From NCBI GenBank assembly GCA_019058315.1, contig JAHPZH010000002.1:1325910-1389909 (forward strand): a DNA stretch of 64,000 bases, written 5' to 3'. This stretch comes from Candidatus Helarchaeota archaeon. Lineage in GTDB: Archaea > Asgardarchaeota > Lokiarchaeia > Helarchaeales > RDOG01. Position 1 is the first letter of the stretch, and every line of letters starts with the position of its first letter. Of this stretch, positions 2 through 10,599 are shown one piece after another. A program made the translations under genes and the position numbers. The notes beneath the pieces were generated by a model. That model made no database searches and was not told the origin of the DNA. It saw only the letters and a program-made list of their open reading frames with translations.

Positions 2-1195
2 AGCAAGATTTTGAAGATATTTTAAGATGTTTTTAACTTCTTTAGGAATATGACCTGATTTAATCGTAATCTTTTTTAATGCCGCTCTTAATTGAGAAAA
101 AAGCGAGATTACACTTTCATTATCAAATTCTATTCGTTTGAGGGGCTCCACAGAGTGTTGAATTACTTCATTTAACTTCTTTTGAGTTTTAATAATGTTT
201 TGTTTAAAATTTTCTCTAAAATTTTCTGTTATTTCAGTATTTTGCGCATTTACTTTATTTGATATTTCTTGAAAAGATTTCAATAAAGGATCAAAATAGT
301 CATAAAAAATGTCACTTAATAAATTAAGATCTTCTTGAAAAATAACACCAAAGTTTAATTCTTCAAAAAAAACATCAATCTCTTTAATTGCTTTAAAAGC
401 TTCTGAGGTAAAACGTTTTAAATTTTCTAGAGTCTCTGAAAATACTTCAATTGAATTTAAAATTACTTTAATTTCTTCACGATTATTAAGAGCAACCAGT
501 TCATTTATTTTATCTATAATTTCGGAATATTCTACTTTTTTTGAGTTGAGTTTATTATAAATTGTTTCCAATTGTTCTTTATTTTCGATAATTTTTTCTT
601 TGTCAGATTCGAATGACTCTAGAAAACTTTCTAATTCTTTTTTAATGGTTTTAAATTCGGTTTTTTTTCCTCTTCTATTGTCATTAATATAATATAGAGG
701 ACCAATTAGAAGAAGGTAAATATCATCTGATTTTTTAATGATTTCAGGAGGTACTTTTTCAAAAATCTCCCCTAATTTACCAAGTGAGTTATAAATTTTT
801 GATATGCGATTTTGACTTATATCTTTAAATTTATCAAATGGCCCAACAATTTCTGGCGTTTTTTCGATTATTTTATTTAGGAAATCTTGAAATTTATCAA
901 TATTTTGTTTTAGATGTAAGGAGAAATCTTTAATTTCACCAGAAACCTCCTCAATATCTTTTGACAGTTCGAATGAAGAGTTAATAAATGGTACAAAATT
1001 TGTTAAAATTTCCTTTTTTAATATCAATAAATCCTCTTTAAAAATTGCCCCCAAACTTAATTCTTTGATTTTTTCTTCAGCTCGTTCAATAATATAATAA
1101 ATTTTATTCACTATCTTCTCGGAATTAATCAGATTATCTTTAACTGGTTTGAGCGAGCTTAATTCAAATTCATATTTAGTAAACTCTAATTTCAA
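2..1195 (-). CDS. Long alpha-helical/coiled-coil hypothetical protein, truncated by the window edge
   Basis: Absent from the ORF track. Read manually as an open frame from TTG at 1195 (LKLEFTKYEFELSSLKPVKDNL...) to the edge (...KEVKNILKYLQNLA). Rich in K/E/I/L/F. Start codon uncertain. Confidence 0.75.
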   Translation of the reverse strand, partial: MKLEFTKYEFELSSLKPVKDNLINSEKIVNKIYYIIERAEEKIKELSLGAIFKEDLLILKKEILTNFVPFINSSFELSKDIEEVSGEIKDFSLHLKQNIDKFQDFLNKIIEKTPEIVGPFDKFKDISQNRISKIYNSLGKLGEIFEKVPPEIIKKSDDIYLLLIGPLYYINDNRRGKKTEFKTIKKELESFLESFESDKEKIIENKEQLETIYNKLNSKKVEYSEIIDKINELVALNNREEIKVILNSIEVFSETLENLKRFTSEAFKAIKEIDVFFEELNFGVIFQEDLNLLSDIFYDYFDPLLKSFQEISNKVNAQNTEITENFRENFKQNIIKTQKKLNEVIQHSVEPLKRIEFDNESVISLFSQLRAALKKITIKSGHIPKEVKNILKYLQNLA

Positions 1196-1257: not shown

Positions 1258-3420
1258 TTACTTAAAGGCTCTTGCTTCTATATGCTTTAAACTATAGTCT
1301 CCACCTTCACCATGGATATCATAAGTGATCTCTACTTCCTGACCTGGTTGTATTTCCTCAATTGTCCAAGTTAATAAGTTACCATCATCTTTACCTGTTG
1401 ATTCATATTCCATGCTTGACTCTAAGATATTGAAATTTATTGGAACAAAATCTGAAATTTTGATATTTGTTTTAACTGAATCGCCTTTATTCTTGTAAAG
1501 TAAAAGAATGCTGTAATCGTCTTTTTCGGCACCAGGACGAACGGATTTACCAATTCTGGTTCTTCTTCTCTCATGAACTACAGTTATTGGTTCAGGTTCT
1601 ATATATGCCTCAAGCACACCACCTGGTGGTTTTGTATAACCTTGGAATAGCACTGGGGCATCATATCTAGCGTCCTTTGCAGGTCTTACGGCATTTAATG
1701 GATATTTTACATTAATAGTAGAATTATCTATCATTGCTCCAGTATTTTCAAGTACATCTACAACCTCTATTATCATTTTCCTTTCTCTTGAAATATCATC
1801 TGGTCCGAGATCTGGTTCGAAGGAAACAGAAAAATCTTCTACTGGGACTGGTTTCTTCTGTCCTTTAATGTCAAAAGAAATTTCTAATTCACTTTTTTCT
1901 GGATTTCTAAAATCAGTTGGGATGGTATCTTCCAATTTGATAATATCAATTGGAGCATCACCTTTAATAGTTGCTATTATTGTGGCATCAAGGGCTTCAG
2001 GACGATAGCTTCTTAGAACATTCTTGCTGAAATCTTTGATTCCTTCAACAGCTAATATTTGTAATTCTAATGATTGCATAGTTGAGCTCATGGAAAGTCT
2101 TTCTTCAGTTCTTGGTATAACCGTGTATTCAACTAATTCACTGAATGTGGGTTCATCTTCAGACTCAAGATCCCAAGGTTCTGAAACCCATTCAGCTTTT
2201 GGATTTACAACTGCATTAGGTTCTACAGCTACAACTTCGAATTCTGTGTTTTCATCACCAGAAATAAACTGGAATTTTTGAAGTGTCATTGGGAATTCAG
2301 ATCTATTTTCAAAGATGAATTGACAATCCCACATATCAGGTTGATCATCTCTTTCATCTCTGTCAACAAAAAAGATTTCTTCGCTAAGTCCATCAACAAA
2401 TTCAGGTTTTAAACCACTATAAGTTCCAGCTTCTAAAGTGTATTTAACTTTTAGCTCTCCACTAGTTAAAGTTTTAATTTCTTTAGGTTCAACTTTGGCC
2501 TTCAGTTTCAATTCGGCAGTTTCACCAGCTTCAAGTTCTTCAACTTTCCAAACTATGGCTTCCACACCTTCTATGTCTTCCTTTGAAGCTTTACCTTTGC
2601 TTGTATCAGAAGCTTTAAAATCCCTAAAGTCTTCTGGAATTATCTTTGCCAACTCTACTAAGGTAACTGTGGAGTCACTTGTGTTTTCCATGGTTATTAC
2701 AAAATTTACCTCTTGCGCTTTTCCCTCTTCACTTAAAACAAATGTACTACTTTCATCTTCAGTTTCGGGAAAAGTATCTACTTTTTCTGAAATTACAACT
2801 GGTGGTTTATCTTCAGCGCTTACTGAAATTTTGTAATCTTTAGTCCACTCTTCTTTTGGCTCAAGATCTGGGATGTGGAATTTTTTCTCTTTTAGATCTG
2901 TACTTTCTCCACCACCCAACTCTATGTCTATATCCCAAATCCTACTTTTATCAGCGTCATTTATAACTGCAATTTGACCAATAACAGTTGAATCAATAAT
3001 TTCTCCATCATGTTTTTGTTTAAAATCTACAGTTTCTTCGACCTTTACTATATATTTGCTCTCAATTGCTTCTTGCTCTTTAGTTGTTGGAGTAGCCATC
3101 TCAGAGGGTACCCCTACTGTTGCTGCAGCAGATACTGGTGCTCCAACTTCAATTCCTTCGCGAACTGCAATTCTATTGAAAAACTCGACTAATTCGTCTT
3201 TATTTAGGAAACTTATCTTTTCCTCTCTGATTCTCTTTTTTGCAAATGTATCCTTAAGCGTATCTTGATTCTCATTATTTAAATCTTTAATTAGATCTTT
3301 ATATTTCTTCTCAAGATCTTTATAATTAATTAATGAATTTACAACGAGTGTGTCTCCACTTAACTCAACATCTGCAAAATCGAAATTCCATCTTTTATCG
3401 GGAATTTTCTTCCACCTCAT
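1258..3420 (-). CDS. Acidic soluble multi-beta-sandwich protein (mu-homology-domain-like / DUF11 Ig-like modules)
   Basis: 720-aa ORF with repeated [I/L]x[D/K]xxP...WxIxxLxPGx(3)xxY-type modules. No signal peptide or TM segment. Confidence 0.6.
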   Translation of the reverse strand: MRWKKIPDKRWNFDFADVELSGDTLVVNSLINYKDLEKKYKDLIKDLNNENQDTLKDTFAKKRIREEKISFLNKDELVEFFNRIAVREGIEVGAPVSAAATVGVPSEMATPTTKEQEAIESKYIVKVEETVDFKQKHDGEIIDSTVIGQIAVINDADKSRIWDIDIELGGGESTDLKEKKFHIPDLEPKEEWTKDYKISVSAEDKPPVVISEKVDTFPETEDESSTFVLSEEGKAQEVNFVITMENTSDSTVTLVELAKIIPEDFRDFKASDTSKGKASKEDIEGVEAIVWKVEELEAGETAELKLKAKVEPKEIKTLTSGELKVKYTLEAGTYSGLKPEFVDGLSEEIFFVDRDERDDQPDMWDCQFIFENRSEFPMTLQKFQFISGDENTEFEVVAVEPNAVVNPKAEWVSEPWDLESEDEPTFSELVEYTVIPRTEERLSMSSTMQSLELQILAVEGIKDFSKNVLRSYRPEALDATIIATIKGDAPIDIIKLEDTIPTDFRNPEKSELEISFDIKGQKKPVPVEDFSVSFEPDLGPDDISRERKMIIEVVDVLENTGAMIDNSTINVKYPLNAVRPAKDARYDAPVLFQGYTKPPGGVLEAYIEPEPITVVHERRRTRIGKSVRPGAEKDDYSILLLYKNKGDSVKTNIKISDFVPINFNILESSMEYESTGKDDGNLLTWTIEEIQPGQEVEITYDIHGEGGDYSLKHIEARAFK

Positions 3421-3818
3421 TTATTTAAATTTATTTTATTATCCAAATTTTTCTTTTTTTTATTTTTTCGGATTATTATGAATCTTAATTTCTTTTAATT
3501 TAGGTTTTATGTCGATTTGGATATTCTAATATTATAATATTCCGATATATAAATTATACTATAATTTATAAATTCATGTTAAAAAAGAAAATGAATTATA
3601 TTATTAAAATACATAAAAAATTTTTTTATTTTCTCTTATTTAACAAGTAAATGGAAAGTTAGTAATAATTTCCGAGATTTCTCTATTCAATTCTAATTTA
3701 AATTAACTATATAAAAAGAACTTTCTTATTCTTTTTATAATAATAAATAAATATAAAAAAATGTAATTAACTTTTTTATAAGACTAATTTAAATAATAAA
3801 AAATAATTAAGAAAAAAA

Positions 3819-4625
3819 ATGGCTATTAAAAAGGAAGATACCCAATCTTATTCTGAGATAATTAACCAGATTTCACAATTAAAATCATTAATTCACGAAG
3901 TTCAAGAATTAAACTTGAAAAATTTAAATGAACAATTCAATCTATTTGAAAATCAATCCCTGAAAAAGAAAATATTTGGAGAATATCAAACTTATTATCA
4001 GAATCTAAGAGAAGATCTTTCCAATCAAATTAAAAAGGAATTAGAAACATTAGAATCAGGTCTTGAACCATTTAAAAATTATGAAAATTTTATTTCATCA
4101 ATAAAAGAAATAAAAAGCCATATATTAAAAGATTTAAATGCTGAATTTAACCGTTTTAAGCAGATGTTTGAAAATATTGAGGCAAAAATCTCCCATATAT
4201 TTAATGAACAATTAAAAACTAGCGCCCTTAAAACATTTGTTGAAACCATCGTTTCTAATATTATATCAGAAGAATTTAATCAAGTTAGGCAATTTGAAAG
4301 AAGATTTGCAATAAAAATCGATGATACTATAAATAAAAGATTGGAAAAATTATCTGATATTTCTAATATTCCAGATATAACTAACTTATCTGTAAAGGAT
4401 ACTGCTCAAAATATTTCTAAAGGTCTAATAAATGCTTTAAATAAATCAGAATCTAAATTTTCAGAAGTTCAGAATGTAATAATGAATTCTTATGAGGTAT
4501 TAAAGGAAACTTTTATAGAAGATACTTATAAAACTGAACAAAATAAACTTTATGATAAAATTTTTAAGCACCTAGATTCTTTAGAGAAAAATTTGAATGA
4601 ATTTTTAAGAAATGTTGAAAAATAA
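3819..4625 (+). CDS. Coiled-coil/helical-bundle hypothetical protein
   Basis: 268-aa ORF with heptad-like I/L/F pattern and very few Gly/Pro. Confidence 0.7.
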   Translation: MAIKKEDTQSYSEIINQISQLKSLIHEVQELNLKNLNEQFNLFENQSLKKKIFGEYQTYYQNLREDLSNQIKKELETLESGLEPFKNYENFISSIKEIKSHILKDLNAEFNRFKQMFENIEAKISHIFNEQLKTSALKTFVETIVSNIISEEFNQVRQFERRFAIKIDDTINKRLEKLSDISNIPDITNLSVKDTAQNISKGLINALNKSESKFSEVQNVIMNSYEVLKETFIEDTYKTEQNKLYDKIFKHLDSLEKNLNEFLRNVEK

Positions 4626-4920
4626 TCTCATCTTACCTCAAATAGATAAAATTATAACACTGTTTAGTTTTTATTGATAATTAATATAAAAAGAAAATTA
4701 CTGAAATAAATTTAAACTACCACCTAAAAAATAATTATAATAAAATAAACAATATGAAATTTAAAATAAAGTTTATAACCATTTAATGCAAGTAGAAAAT
4801 AATTTGCTTAGACTTTTCCATCAAAATTAAGCAAAATTTTCTTCTAAATTCATAAAATGATTGTAAGTAAAAAAATAAACTTAAAACTTGCTAAAAAATA
4901 AGCAAGGAAAAGGTATTTGC

Positions 4921-7900
4921 ATGAAAACTAATAAAAAAATCCTATTTTCTATTTTAATGGCATTTAATACCTTTTGTTCCCTAATTTCATTTTTCAATAT
5001 GAATTCATTATTTTTACTAAACAATCTTAGTGGGATTAATGGAATTAATTCAAATTCTGAAATTTTTAACCTTCACAGTGACAATTATCAAATAACAGAA
5101 CAATGGCTAAAAAATCCTACATTCGATTCTCCAATAAGCCCAAATTGGACACCCACGACATCTGGTGAATTAACTGACTTTGAGCTTTTAGGAGGTTCAG
5201 GACTTGCTAATTATACAGTAATCGGAGAGCAAGGAACTGAAATATTTGAGCGTAATTTTTCGGAAAGTGGTTGGATTAAGATGCATAACCCGGATTTTCC
5301 CTCTTATCCGAGTGAAGTAAAAGCAACTTCCTTTGAGGGAATCGATTCAGATGGGATTTTAGCCAATCATTCGTGGGATGAAACAGTAGGAGATCAAGTA
5401 GGACAAGATCCAAGTGTCCTCTGGAAACGTAATGAATCTTTTACAAAAGATATGAGTGATTATGAAATCAGTTCTGCATCTATAACAGCAGTTTTCAATG
5501 TAAGTGCTGATTCTAATATTGATAGGGAAAACGATCCGGAAGGAAATTCTGGTTATACTTGGGATCATGTTCTATTTTTTATTAAATTATCAGATATTAA
5601 CGCAAGTCGCAATTATCTTGTAGCTTATTATCAGTTTGAAAACGATACAACTCTTAACGATACTTATATGAAAACATTTCATGAGGAAAATCTAATTTTT
5701 TATTTGTCCTCTATATTTGAACAAGGGACCGATTTTACAATAACAGTAGGTATCAATTTCTTCTGCGAAGACAACATGGATCCACAAGACACCGATACTT
5801 GGTATTATGCGAGAATAAAATCACTTAATTTAACATTTTCTTACAAAAAAATAATAAATCAAGACACACGTGGATATTGGATCCAAACAAGTGATAAATT
5901 AAATGTAACTGGTAAAAATTTTGAAATTGATGAAGCTAAATTGTATTTTCAATACCGGGTTGATCCATCATGGCCTATCGAATCTCCGAATTCAGAATTT
6001 ATAATAAAAGTAAATAATAATACTTATTCTGAAACCATCAAACTTTCAAATTTACCTAATACATTAGAAGAAGCAAGAATTAATGGTTTTGATGTAAAAC
6101 ATCTTTTGGTAAAATATGATAATGTATCCGTATCATTGGAAGTAAGTCTTGCTGATACTTTTAATTTATCAACTAATAAGACTATATCTATCGATAATGT
6201 TAGATTAAATATAACCTTAACAGTTTTAGAAGAGAAAAGCAAGCGTAAACCACCATCTTTGATCCTACCGACAAGCGGCGAGGATTGGACATGGTTAATT
6301 ATTTTACTTAGCATTTTATTAACTGCTATAATGCTCGCTCAGGGTATTTATACATTTCGTGTTAAACGTCCTCCTATGATTCGTAAAATTAGAAAACTTA
6401 AAAAGAGAATCAAGAAAAACAATTTAAAAAATCCAGTTCAAGTACAAAAGAGATCAACAATCATTCAGAGAGTTTTAAGTTATAAATTAAAATCATCCCA
6501 CTTTGCATATGCCTCTAAACCATTAAAGCCGAAAGTTGAAAAGAAATTAAAACAAAAAAGACCTAAAAAAGAAGGTAATCTTAAATTATTATTATTCTTT
6601 GCATTATTTGCATTTCTATTATTTATAATCTCCTCGTCAGCGATTACCAATGGATCATTAGATCCCAATATATTGCCTGCTATCCGAAATTTTATTTTAC
6701 CTAAAAATTCCAATTTTGATCTTCAAAGTAAAGACACTCATGAAACTAAACAATGGATAAAGAATCCATTATTCAATTCACCAATAAATCAATATTGGTC
6801 AACTTCTAAAGGAGGAGATTTAACCGATATGGAGTTAACTGAAGATACTGGCTATGTCAATTATGTTGTTATGGGGGATAATAGGACTGAAAATTATATT
6901 AACAATCCTCCAGAAATTAATAATTGGACTATGGTGCATGATCCTGATCATCCAACTTTTCCAAATGAAACATTATCTGGAACCGAAAATGCTTGGAGTG
7001 GAATTGTAGGAGATGGGGCATTTTCAAATCATAGTTGGAGAGAAGGAGGGCCAAATCAATTAGGACAAGATCCGAGTGTTTTGTGGAAACGAAATATTAC
7101 ATTACCAGTTAATTTTACTGATTATGAAATAACTTCAGCTTCACTTTCTACTAACATAAACGCTAGTCCACTTTCAAATGTTGAGAATGCCGGTGATGGA
7201 TCATATCAGGGAAGAGGAGATTACGTACGCTTTTTCATCAGAGTATCTGATTTAAGTGGAAATATTACATATGAAATTGCCAATTATCTCCATGAAGGTG
7301 ATAGTGACCTTTCTGATACGCCAATGAATAATGTGACTGACACTGATCTTATGTTTTTTTTAAGTTCAGTATTACAAGAGGATGGTTATAATTTTACATT
7401 AACTATGGGTATCAATTTTTGGTGTGAAGATAATGAAGGGACTGATAATGATGAGTGGGAATATACATACATAAAAGAATTCAACCTACATTTTACATAT
7501 CATAAAAAAATAAATCAATTTACATATGCTCGTTGGGATCAAGTAGGAGATAGATTAAATGGTCGAGATTTCAGAATAAATGAAGCAAAATTATATTTTC
7601 AATATAAAACTGATACAAATTGGACCCATTATTCCAATAATTCAGAATTCAGAATCGTCATTAATAGTAGTACACATTCGGAAACAATAAAATTAACATT
7701 GGCAAATTCAACATTTCAAGATGCGAAATTTATTGGTTTTGATGTTACGAATCTAATGATAAAAAATGATAATATAAGAGTCTCATTGGAAGTTTATATA
7801 GCAGACAATTTTCCTTTAGAAGAAAACTTAACTATATCTATCGATAATGTCTCCTTATATATTAGTCGAACCATTATAATACCTCCTGATCTAAGTTCAT

Positions 7901-10599: not shown

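What the first reader, a model, noticed from the sequence alone, without database searches (positions are those of the whole stretch)
1300..10443. Giant membrane protein and neighbouring soluble protein end in the same domain
Seen: the C-terminus of the 720-aa protein (about 1300-1569) aligns by eye with that of the 1903-aa protein (about 10165-10443). The former reads RTRIGKSVRP...YSILL...NIKISDFVPINFNI...DDGNLLTWTIEEI...EITYDIHGEG and the latter PLVDILRFVEP...LITFY...EIHIKEIIPENLKI...EDGKTIQIWKIVPEL...EFGYICSGEG. By TM count and the positive-inside rule the latter should be cytoplasmic, at the tip of the repeat stalk. Inference: a homotypic docking or co-polymerisation module tethering the soluble protein to the membrane.
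Basis: partly seen in the sequence, partly recalled or inferred. Interest (0 to 1): 0.7.

Follow-up and report, generated by a model that had tools for sequence, protein, structure and literature searches.

The report
Giant's tail domain: shared, but elsewhere
In this Asgard archaeon the giant membrane protein ends in a real shared domain, but its partners are two soluble proteins encoded about 4-6 kb outside the window, not the 720-aa neighbour, which ends in a different, ordinary DUF11-type beta-sandwich.

Summary
The by-eye alignment sits at the stated coordinates, and it is the best local alignment a profile comparison finds. It is not above chance: BLASTP E 0.16, shuffle z 1.9, hhalign probability 0.25-10%.

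The two C-termini belong to two separately conserved families.
- The giant ends in a ~150-aa 'FGYICSG' domain (CTD). This genome has true CTD copies (E 1e-31 and 1e-40) at the ends of a 521-aa and a 256-aa soluble protein just upstream of the window.

The CTD family is tiny: 18 clusters among 1.84 billion proteins; every source name seen is an Asgard label. The 720-aa family was found in 198 of 251 sampled genomes of the phylum, almost all without a CTD.

Weak signals suggest the CTD is a very divergent DUF11-like sandwich. Docking is untested. Another reader of this scan noted the three-protein domain on an overlapping window.

The parts
1258..3420 (-). 720-aa soluble protein (P0001). Layout: small N-terminal alpha/beta domain, disordered linker, complete mu-homology domain, pilin-like sandwich, C-terminal DUF11-like sandwich.
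   Evidence: ORF. Pfam DUF11 at 55.4 bits and Adap_comp_sub at 33.1 bits against a cut-off of 31.6. AF2 model pLDDT 83.5. No TM segment, max KD19 1.06.
2071..3069 (-). Mu-homology domain of P0001, residues 118-450.
1303..1572 (-).
   Evidence: Pfam DUF11 E 3.9e-5, 24.4 bits against a cut-off of 24.6, on the isolated segment. hhalign 97% to the internal DUF11 (233-315), 98% (E 2e-13) to p521 middle domain 1, about 90% to p521 middle domain 2.
4888..10599 (+). Giant membrane protein (P0002). 1903 aa from the TTG; the database copy is 1892 aa, consistent with a start at the ATG at 4921.
   Evidence: Four TM helices at 18-36, 469-487, 568-586 and 1016-1034. Two outside modules are 46% identical over 431 aa. 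Sequons 17/0/16/0.
8137..10086 (+). Cytoplasmic stalk: about 20 copies of a ~30-aa helical repeat (LPxEKLLxLDxSxLLTDEMINxIA), residues 1084-1733.
   Evidence: Self-HMM scan finds 22 segments, with an ~87-aa super-repeat in the middle. A helix is predicted in the one repeat that was modelled.
10120..10578 (+). 'FGYICSG' C-terminal domain (CTD), residues 1745-1897.
   Evidence: AF2 gives an 11-strand sandwich plus a terminal helix, pLDDT 70. Paralogs in the own genome at E 6.8e-40 and 9.1e-31. hhalign 100%, E 1e-60, to the p521 CTD. No Pfam hit at E<=10 and no PDB sequence relative.
2..1195 (-). N-terminal 398 codons of a 757-aa protein that runs off the window start. It combines a helical N-terminus with a Rag/Gtr1-type GTPase and lies directly downstream of P0001.
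   Evidence: Full ORF L007:332-2605(-). Pfam Gtr1_RagA E 2.2e-24, Arf 4.4e-15.
3819..4625 (+). 268-aa protein upstream of the giant. It travels with the giant in a Helarchaeota-labelled MAG.
   Evidence: tblastn 42% identity next to the giant's ortholog in L009. No Pfam family above cut-off.
10605..11516 (+). TPR protein (303 aa) immediately downstream of the giant; conserved with it.
   Evidence: Pfam TPR_12 at 7e-80. Ortholog beside the giant's ortholog in L009, 52% identity.
11534..12655 (+). 373-aa protein of unknown family; conserved with the giant.
   Evidence: 61% identical ortholog directly after the giant's ortholog in L009. No Pfam or PDB relative.

Best explanation
The two C-termini are both small Ig-like beta-sandwiches of the DUF11/CLIPPER kind, but they are members of two different, separately conserved domain families.

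Shown:
- The 720-aa protein belongs to an MHD-containing family found in most sampled genomes of the phylum. Its last domain is a near-canonical DUF11-like sandwich.
- The giant's last ~150 aa form a distinct domain, the 'FGYICSG' CTD. It has a sandwich core plus three extra strands and a terminal helix carrying an F-x-P-E-L-H motif.
- In this genome three proteins end in the CTD: the giant, a 521-aa soluble protein (p521) and a 256-aa soluble protein (p256).
- p521 and p256 lie at the end of the minus-strand gene run: MHD protein, Rag-like GTPase protein, 789-aa coiled-coil protein, p521, p256.
- p521 carries both kinds of domain: two DUF11-like middle domains related to the 720-aa protein's C-terminus, then the CTD.
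- The giant holds its CTD in the cytoplasm at the end of a ~650-aa helical-repeat stalk.

Inferred (about 0.3):
- The CTD is a protein-binding module that puts one binding surface both on a membrane-anchored stalk and on soluble members of the MHD/Rag/coiled-coil set.
- It would act either by CTD-CTD association or by binding a common third partner, so that the soluble set can be brought to the membrane.
- The 720-aa protein would be linked to the giant only indirectly, through p521.
For: True sharing of the CTD:
- Own-genome search gives E 6.8e-40 (50% identity) and E 9.1e-31 (40% identity) in ORFs of 256 and 521 aa.
- hhalign of giant CTD against p521 CTD gives 100%, E 1e-60.

The CTD is a separate family:
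- A CTD profile run against 1.84 billion representatives returns 18 proteins, all giant-, p521- or p256-type. None is an MHD-family or DUF11 protein.
- No Pfam hit for the giant's CTD segment or 17 p521-type CTDs at E<=10.

The 720-aa protein's C-terminus is DUF11-like:
- Pfam gives 24.4 bits.
- hhalign gives 97% to the internal DUF11 and 98% and about 90% to the two p521 middle domains.
- tblastn matches p521 192-276 to the C-terminus of ortholog P0012 at E 1.5e-7.

Distribution:
- The MHD family is in 198 of 251 sampled genomes of the phylum, with matches running to profile position ~705 of 710. The CTD is in 3 of 251, and only the window's own genome matches strongly.

Gene context:
- MHD, coiled-coil and p521 genes are kept together in a 72% and a 47% relative.
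- A natural fusion of coiled-coil and p521 exists (P0058, 1075 aa).
- The giant travels with the 268-aa, TPR and 373-aa genes on another contig in the 72% relative.

Location:
- Topology and sequon distribution put the CTD inside the cell.
- All other locus proteins lack TM segments.
Against: - A weak but systematic signal links the two families, so 'different families' may mean two branches of one superfamily.
- The MHD-C-terminus HMM scores 24 of 28 CTDs above every reversed control, at up to 10.7 bits.
- The CTD profile hits the canonical DUF11 C-terminus of a distant MHD-family member (G018) at 20-27 bits, E 3e-6 per genome.
- No direct structural superposition of the two domains could be run.
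- Nothing here measures binding, so the functional part rests on architecture and gene order only.
- The giant and the MHD operon are adjacent only in this genome and an 88%-identical relative. In the 72% relative they lie on separate contigs.
Confidence: 0.75

Rival explanations
1. The C-terminal domains of the 720-aa protein and the giant are the same domain. They dock or co-polymerise homotypically, tethering the 720-aa protein to the membrane.
For:
- Strand order matches in the two AF2 models.
- Both domains are cytoplasmic.
- The genes are divergent neighbours here and in an 88% relative.
- There are weak cross-family HMM signals.
Against: - Similarity is not above chance for this pair.
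- The CTD HMM scores this subfamily like reversed sequence.
- The giant's tail matches the internal DUF11 of the same protein as well as its C-terminus.
- The 720-aa family keeps this domain in ~195 sampled genomes with no CTD.
- The genes lie on separate contigs in the 72% relative.
Confidence: 0.07
2. The CTD is a very divergent offshoot of the DUF11/CLIPPER superfamily. The resemblance the reader saw would then be real but ancient common ancestry, shared equally with every DUF11-like domain of the locus, and it would imply no specific pairing.
For: - CTD against the internal DUF11 and against the C-terminal DUF11 give the two best hhalign P-values (0.0027 and 0.0032), over the same motif.
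- The CTD profile hits a canonical DUF11 (Pfam E 1.8e-16) in G018 at 20-27 bits.
- Reciprocal HMM scores are above the reversed controls.
- In p521 the CTD is the third sandwich in a row after two DUF11-like ones.
Against: - No single comparison reaches significance for the families as wholes: probability is 11% at best.
- Pfam DUF11 does not hit the giant's CTD segment or any of the 17 p521-type CTDs even at E<=10.
- The low-complexity K/E/I-rich composition may inflate weak scores.
Confidence: 0.5
3. The resemblance is convergent or chance. Any two 7-strand sandwiches from an AT-rich genome will show alternating hydrophobic patterns with a proline-bearing turn. The CTD would then have no evolutionary link to DUF11.
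For: - Pairwise statistics are at chance level.
- Foldseek finds nothing at E<=0.001, and the Atlas shape search stays at TM 0.47 or below.
- The top structural matches are a mix of MHD, pilin, alpha-2-macroglobulin and CBM folds.
Against: - The signal is systematic across 24 of 28 CTDs.
- Apart from the query genome's own three copies, only two loci hit the CTD profile across 251 genomes, and one is exactly the C-terminal DUF11 of an MHD-family protein.
Confidence: 0.35

Closest known systems
DUF11 / CLIPPER domain (Pfam PF01345)
   Same: Both are ~7-strand Ig-like sandwiches with the h-x-h-x-D-x-h-P ... W ... G-E signature. The 720-aa protein's C-terminus matches at 24.4 bits, and the whole protein matches at 55.4 bits.
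   Different: The giant's CTD gets no PF01345 hit at E<=10. It has one extra N-terminal strand, three extra C-terminal strands, a terminal helix, and its own invariant FGY-C-G and F-x-P-x-x-H motifs. From memory, DUF11 is mostly known from cell-surface proteins. Here all copies are cytoplasmic.
Mu-homology domain of AP mu subunits, delta-COP and muniscins (Pfam PF00928)
   Different: The protein is not a mu-adaptin. No structural alignment reached its N-terminal domain, and three more sandwich domains follow the MHD. The CTD match covers one sub-sandwich only and is tied with unrelated folds. The presence of the mu C-terminal domain in Asgard archaea is already published (PMC10307638).
Appendage ('ear') domains of adaptins and GGAs
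Cohesin-type docking modules
   Different: No dockerin-like partner was identified and the system is cytoplasmic. This is an analogy only.

Membership tests
'FGYICSG' CTD family (defined here) | Significant match to the CTD profile over ~150 aa. | tested here: met
   Giant 230 bits, p521 217 bits. p256 E 6.8e-40. hhalign 100%.
'FGYICSG' CTD family (defined here) | The same test applied to the 720-aa protein's C-terminus. | tested here: not met
   Best CTD-HMM score on P0001 is -2.2 bits, and at most 0.2 bits on its 19 relatives; reversed controls reach 0.7. It is absent from the 18 hits among 1.84 billion proteins.
DUF11 / CLIPPER (PF01345) | Pfam HMM match at or above the gathering score. | tested here: met
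   For the 720-aa protein: 55.4 bits against 24.6, in two stretches. The C-terminal segment alone gives 24.4 bits.
DUF11 / CLIPPER (PF01345) | The same test applied to the giant's CTD. | tested here: not met
   No family at E<=10 for P0002:1740-1885. No PF01345 hit among 17 CTD members.
DUF11 / CLIPPER (PF01345) | Profile-level relation of the CTD to bona fide DUF11 domains. | tested here: inconclusive
   hhalign 2-11%. The CTD profile hits a canonical DUF11 in G018 at 20-27 bits. Reciprocal scores are weak but above controls.
DUF11 / CLIPPER (PF01345) | Ig-like beta-sandwich fold of about seven strands. | tested here: met
Mu-homology domain (PF00928) | Pfam match above cut-off and a full two-subdomain MHD fold (720-aa protein). 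| tested here: met
Mu-homology domain (PF00928) | The same test applied to the giant's CTD. | tested here: inconclusive
AP-complex mu subunit | N-terminal longin domain preceding the MHD. | tested here: inconclusive
   The structural alignments to full-length mu chains start at model residue 93-118. The N-terminal domain (1-90) was not folded or searched on its own.

The most novel reading that the evidence does not exclude
The CTD is an Asgard counterpart of an adaptor 'ear': a cytoplasmic beta-sandwich binding platform. Variants would end a giant transmembrane receptor-like protein, soluble partners of an MHD / Rag-GTPase / coiled-coil operon and, in another lineage, a HEAT / Adaptin_N-like protein. 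The locus would then encode a primitive membrane-adaptor system in which the giant is the membrane anchor or cargo, and the CTD-bearing proteins bridge it to the MHD protein.
Probability: 0.1. Interest if true: 0.8.

Novelty: new variant of a known kind. Interest (0 to 1): 0.4.

Why it matters

What replaces it is a narrowly distributed, unannotated cytoplasmic domain. It ends three proteins of one locus: one on a long membrane-anchored stalk, and two encoded in the same gene run as an MHD protein, a Rag-type GTPase and a coiled-coil protein.

If the CTD proves to be a binding module, it gives a concrete and testable handle on whether the MHD and GTPase proteins of Asgard archaea are recruited to membranes. 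That question bears on the origin of eukaryotic trafficking.

As it stands this is a domain-family definition plus a hypothesis, not a demonstrated mechanism.

Tried and rejected
- **Complex prediction.** Giant CTD (A6) with p521 CTD (A5) returned 'no answer', score 0.00 in two runs with controls not run. This is neither support nor evidence against binding.
- **Foldseek of the CTD model against PDB.** Nothing at E<=0.001.
- **ESM-Atlas shape search of the CTD model.** TM 0.47 or below, mixed families.
- **Sequence search of the CTD profile against PDB chains.** No hit at E<=10.
- **Pfam on the giant's outside modules and stalk.** Only sub-threshold or repeat-driven hits such as CelTOS and Sulfotransfer_4. 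I take these to be artefacts of the 30-aa repeat.
- **Atlas feature search of the outside module.** It gave only leads (0.84) to ~535-aa Promethearchaeota proteins, possibly single-module forms.
- **PDB search of the 373-aa neighbour.** Nothing.
- **Literature.** Searches for Asgard with mu homology domain, PF00928 or MHD found no paper on this protein family or locus. Only the domain-level report in PMC10307638 turned up.

Full report
**Setting.** The window is AT-rich, about 30% G+C. It lies at C5:1325910-1389909 of a 5.8-Mb, 12-contig genome. Source names on the homologs of the 720-aa protein are all Asgard labels: Hodarchaeota, Helarchaeota, Sigynarchaeota, Lokiarchaeota and Promethearchaeota. 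The finding concerns two divergently transcribed genes:
- 1258-3420(-) encodes a 720-aa protein (P0001).
- 4888-10599(+) encodes a 1903-aa protein (P0002). The database copy is 1892 aa, consistent with a start at the ATG at 4921.

**Checking the observation.** The quoted strings are at the stated places. Residues 617-706 of P0001 map to 1303-1572, and residues 1760-1852 of P0002 map to 10165-10443. The similarity is weak on every test:
- BLASTP of the two tails gives 16.9 bits, E 0.16 for a single comparison, 24% identity over 121 columns.
- A local alignment scores 34 against 25.8 +/- 4.4 for 2000 shuffles, z 1.9, with 129 shuffles as good.
- The giant's tail scores higher (40) against windows of P0001 around residues 160-300 than against its C-terminus.
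- hhalign of the giant's tail family (4 sequences) against the P0001 family (19 sequences) gives probability 1.5%. That alignment lands on P0001 250-296, the internal DUF11.

The AF2 models agree that both segments are all-beta, and seven successive strands fall in the same order along that alignment.

**What the giant's tail really matches.** I searched the window's own genome with P0002:1740-1885. Besides the giant itself, two strong matches lie just upstream of the window:
- E 6.8e-40, 50% identity, at the end of a 256-aa ORF (p256).
- E 9.1e-31, 40% identity, at the end of a 521-aa ORF (p521).

P0001 did not appear even at E<=10. The only other hit, E 0.27, lies in a 602-aa ORF on contig 3. 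One search shows that ORF is a paralog of P0001, and the hit falls at its C-terminal end.

The fetched upstream region (L006) shows one minus-strand gene run:
- P0001.
- A 757-aa protein with a helical N-terminus and a Gtr1/RagA-type GTPase (Pfam E 2.2e-24).
- A 789-aa coiled-coil protein.
- p521.
- p256.

The eight-sequence CTD alignment has invariant I-P, Q-x-W-K, F-G-Y-x-C-x-G, F-P-x-E and F-x-P-x-x-H positions.

**Domain-by-domain profile comparison.**

| Comparison | hhalign probability | E or P value |
|---|---|---|
| Giant CTD vs p521 CTD | 100% | E 1e-60 |
| P0001 C-terminus vs p521 middle domain 1 | 98% | E 2e-13 |
| P0001 C-terminus vs p521 middle domain 2 | 89-92% | about E 1e-6 |
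| P0001 C-terminus vs its internal DUF11 (233-315) | 97% | E 2e-10 |
| Giant CTD vs P0001 C-terminus | 2-10% | P 0.003-0.024 |
| Giant CTD vs P0001 internal DUF11 | 11% | P 0.0027 |

The last two rows are at the same level as each other. p521 thus contains both kinds of domain, side by side and distinguishable. This is the clearest sign that they are two families.

tblastn confirms the first link independently. p521 192-276 matches the C-terminus of the P0001 ortholog P0012 at E 1.5e-7, and P0001 642-698 matches the equivalent domain of a p521-like protein in another MAG.

**Size and range of the two families.** The CTD profile, run against 1.84 billion representatives, returns 18 proteins. 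All have giant-, p521-, coiled-coil-p521 or p256-type lengths and architectures, and none is a DUF11 or P0001-family protein. Among 251 sampled genomes of the phylum:
- The CTD profile found only the window's genome strongly, plus two weak hits.
- The P0001 family was found in 198 of 251 genomes, and in 72 of 89 high-quality ones. Matches nearly always run to profile position ~700-706 of 710, so they include the C-terminal domain.

A domain kept by nearly 200 genomes that have no CTD cannot owe its existence to docking on the giant.

**Is the CTD a remote DUF11?** Several weak signals point that way.
- The two best non-CTD hhalign P-values are both to DUF11-like domains over the I-K-E-x-I-P motif.
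- An HMM of the P0001-family C-terminus scores 24 of 28 CTDs above every reversed-sequence control, at up to 10.7 bits against 0.6 or less.
- Across the 251 genomes, one of the two foreign hits of the CTD profile is the C-terminal domain of a distant P0001-family member. This is G018, at 20-27 bits and E 3e-6 per genome. Pfam calls that domain a canonical DUF11, E 1.8e-16.

Against this:
- Pfam DUF11 does not hit the giant's CTD segment or any of 17 p521-type CTDs at E<=10.
- The CTD HMM scores P0001 and its 19 close relatives like reversed sequence.

I put about even odds on a distant superfamily link. Even if it is real, it is shared with every DUF11-like domain of the locus and singles out no pair.

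**The two proteins.**

P0001:
- It is soluble, with max 19-residue hydropathy 1.06.
- Its model (pLDDT 83.5) has a small N-terminal alpha/beta domain and a disordered linker at 92-106.
- The C-terminal DUF11-like domain follows.
- The presence of the mu C-terminal domain in Asgard archaea has been reported, 'not fused' to other AP domains (PMC10307638).

The giant:
- It has TM helices at 18-36, 469-487, 568-586 and 1016-1034, with K/R-rich flanks on the predicted inner side.
- Its two outside modules are 46% identical over 431 aa.
- N-x-S/T sequons number 17 and 16 in the outside modules, none in the 76-aa loop and none in the 864-aa tail.
- The tail holds about 20 copies of a 30-aa helical repeat over residues 1084-1733, followed by the CTD.

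**Gene context elsewhere.**
- In an 88%-identical relative the whole arrangement is syntenic.
- In a Helarchaeota-labelled MAG (72% identity) the run of MHD protein, helical protein, coiled-coil and two CTD-bearing p521-like proteins (918 and 518 aa) sits on one contig. The run of 268-aa-like protein, giant, 373-aa protein and TPR sits on another.
- In a 47% relative the order MHD, coiled-coil, p521 is kept, with a second p521-like gene nearby.
- One database protein (P0058, 1075 aa) fuses the coiled-coil protein's C-terminal part to p521.

p521 is therefore the usual bearer of the CTD and a steady companion of the MHD protein. The giant carries the CTD in only two 50%-identity clusters.

**How it most likely works (inference).** The same terminal sandwich sits on a membrane-anchored stalk and on soluble proteins of the MHD/Rag/coiled-coil run. 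The simplest reading is a shared binding module. Either CTDs associate with each other, or all bind one partner, which would bring the soluble set to the giant's cytoplasmic tip. I give this about 0.3. The only computational test available, a complex prediction of giant CTD with p521 CTD, gave no verdict (listed under tried and rejected only).

**Verdict.** The CTD is an unannotated, lineage-restricted variant of a common sandwich fold.

Noticed in passing
L012:4466-6889 (-) (G031:C68, another Asgard family): An 807-aa protein with HEAT repeats (HEAT_2 5e-19) and a sub-threshold Adaptin_N match (26.2 bits against a cut-off of 37). It ends in a weak, full-length CTD-like match (22 bits) that includes an L-P-x-L-H terminal motif. 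The layout is solenoid plus terminal sandwich, reminiscent of adaptin trunk plus ear.
   Followed up: partly
window 2-1195 (-) continuing to G000:C5:1324831 (L007:332-2605): A 757-aa protein directly downstream of the MHD gene. A ~450-aa helical N-terminus is fused to a Gtr1/RagA-type GTPase (E 2.2e-24). In the 72% relative the helical part is a separate 459-aa gene, and Arf-like GTPase genes lie upstream instead.
   Followed up: partly
P0058 (1075 aa, database protein): A natural fusion of the C-terminal part of the 789-aa coiled-coil/winged-helix-like protein with a complete p521, including its CTD. This is a Rosetta-stone hint that the two work together.
   Followed up: no
P0055 (349 aa, database protein): A p256-type protein whose CTD is interrupted, after the FGYICSG motif, by a ~70-aa insert that looks by eye like a helix-turn-helix.
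   Followed up: no
window 4888-7950 (+): The giant is an internal tandem duplication of a [TM - ~420-aa sequon-rich outside module - TM - basic segment] unit, 46% identity over 431 aa. A feature search points to ~535-aa Promethearchaeota proteins that may be single-unit forms, at score 0.84, which is a lead only.
   Followed up: partly
window 12670-13737 (-) and 13807-14871 (-): Two adjacent ~355-aa paralog-sized genes with sub-threshold DnaJ-type CXXCXGXG / BSD2 cysteine-rich zinc-finger matches. They are also present in the syntenic relative.
   Followed up: no
G000:C3:593127-594878 (-): A second, 602-aa member of the MHD/DUF11 family in the same genome, E 2.5e-88 to the family profile. It was not reported by the PF00928 scan of the genome at E<=1.
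   Followed up: no
L006:2348-4312 (-) and L006:9068-10660 (-) (upstream of the window): Two secreted or anchored proteins made of many ~45-aa 'PQICSDGAGGAIITW.D.R' repeats, each with a C-terminal TM segment. They look by eye like a beta-propeller-type surface repeat family.
   Followed up: no
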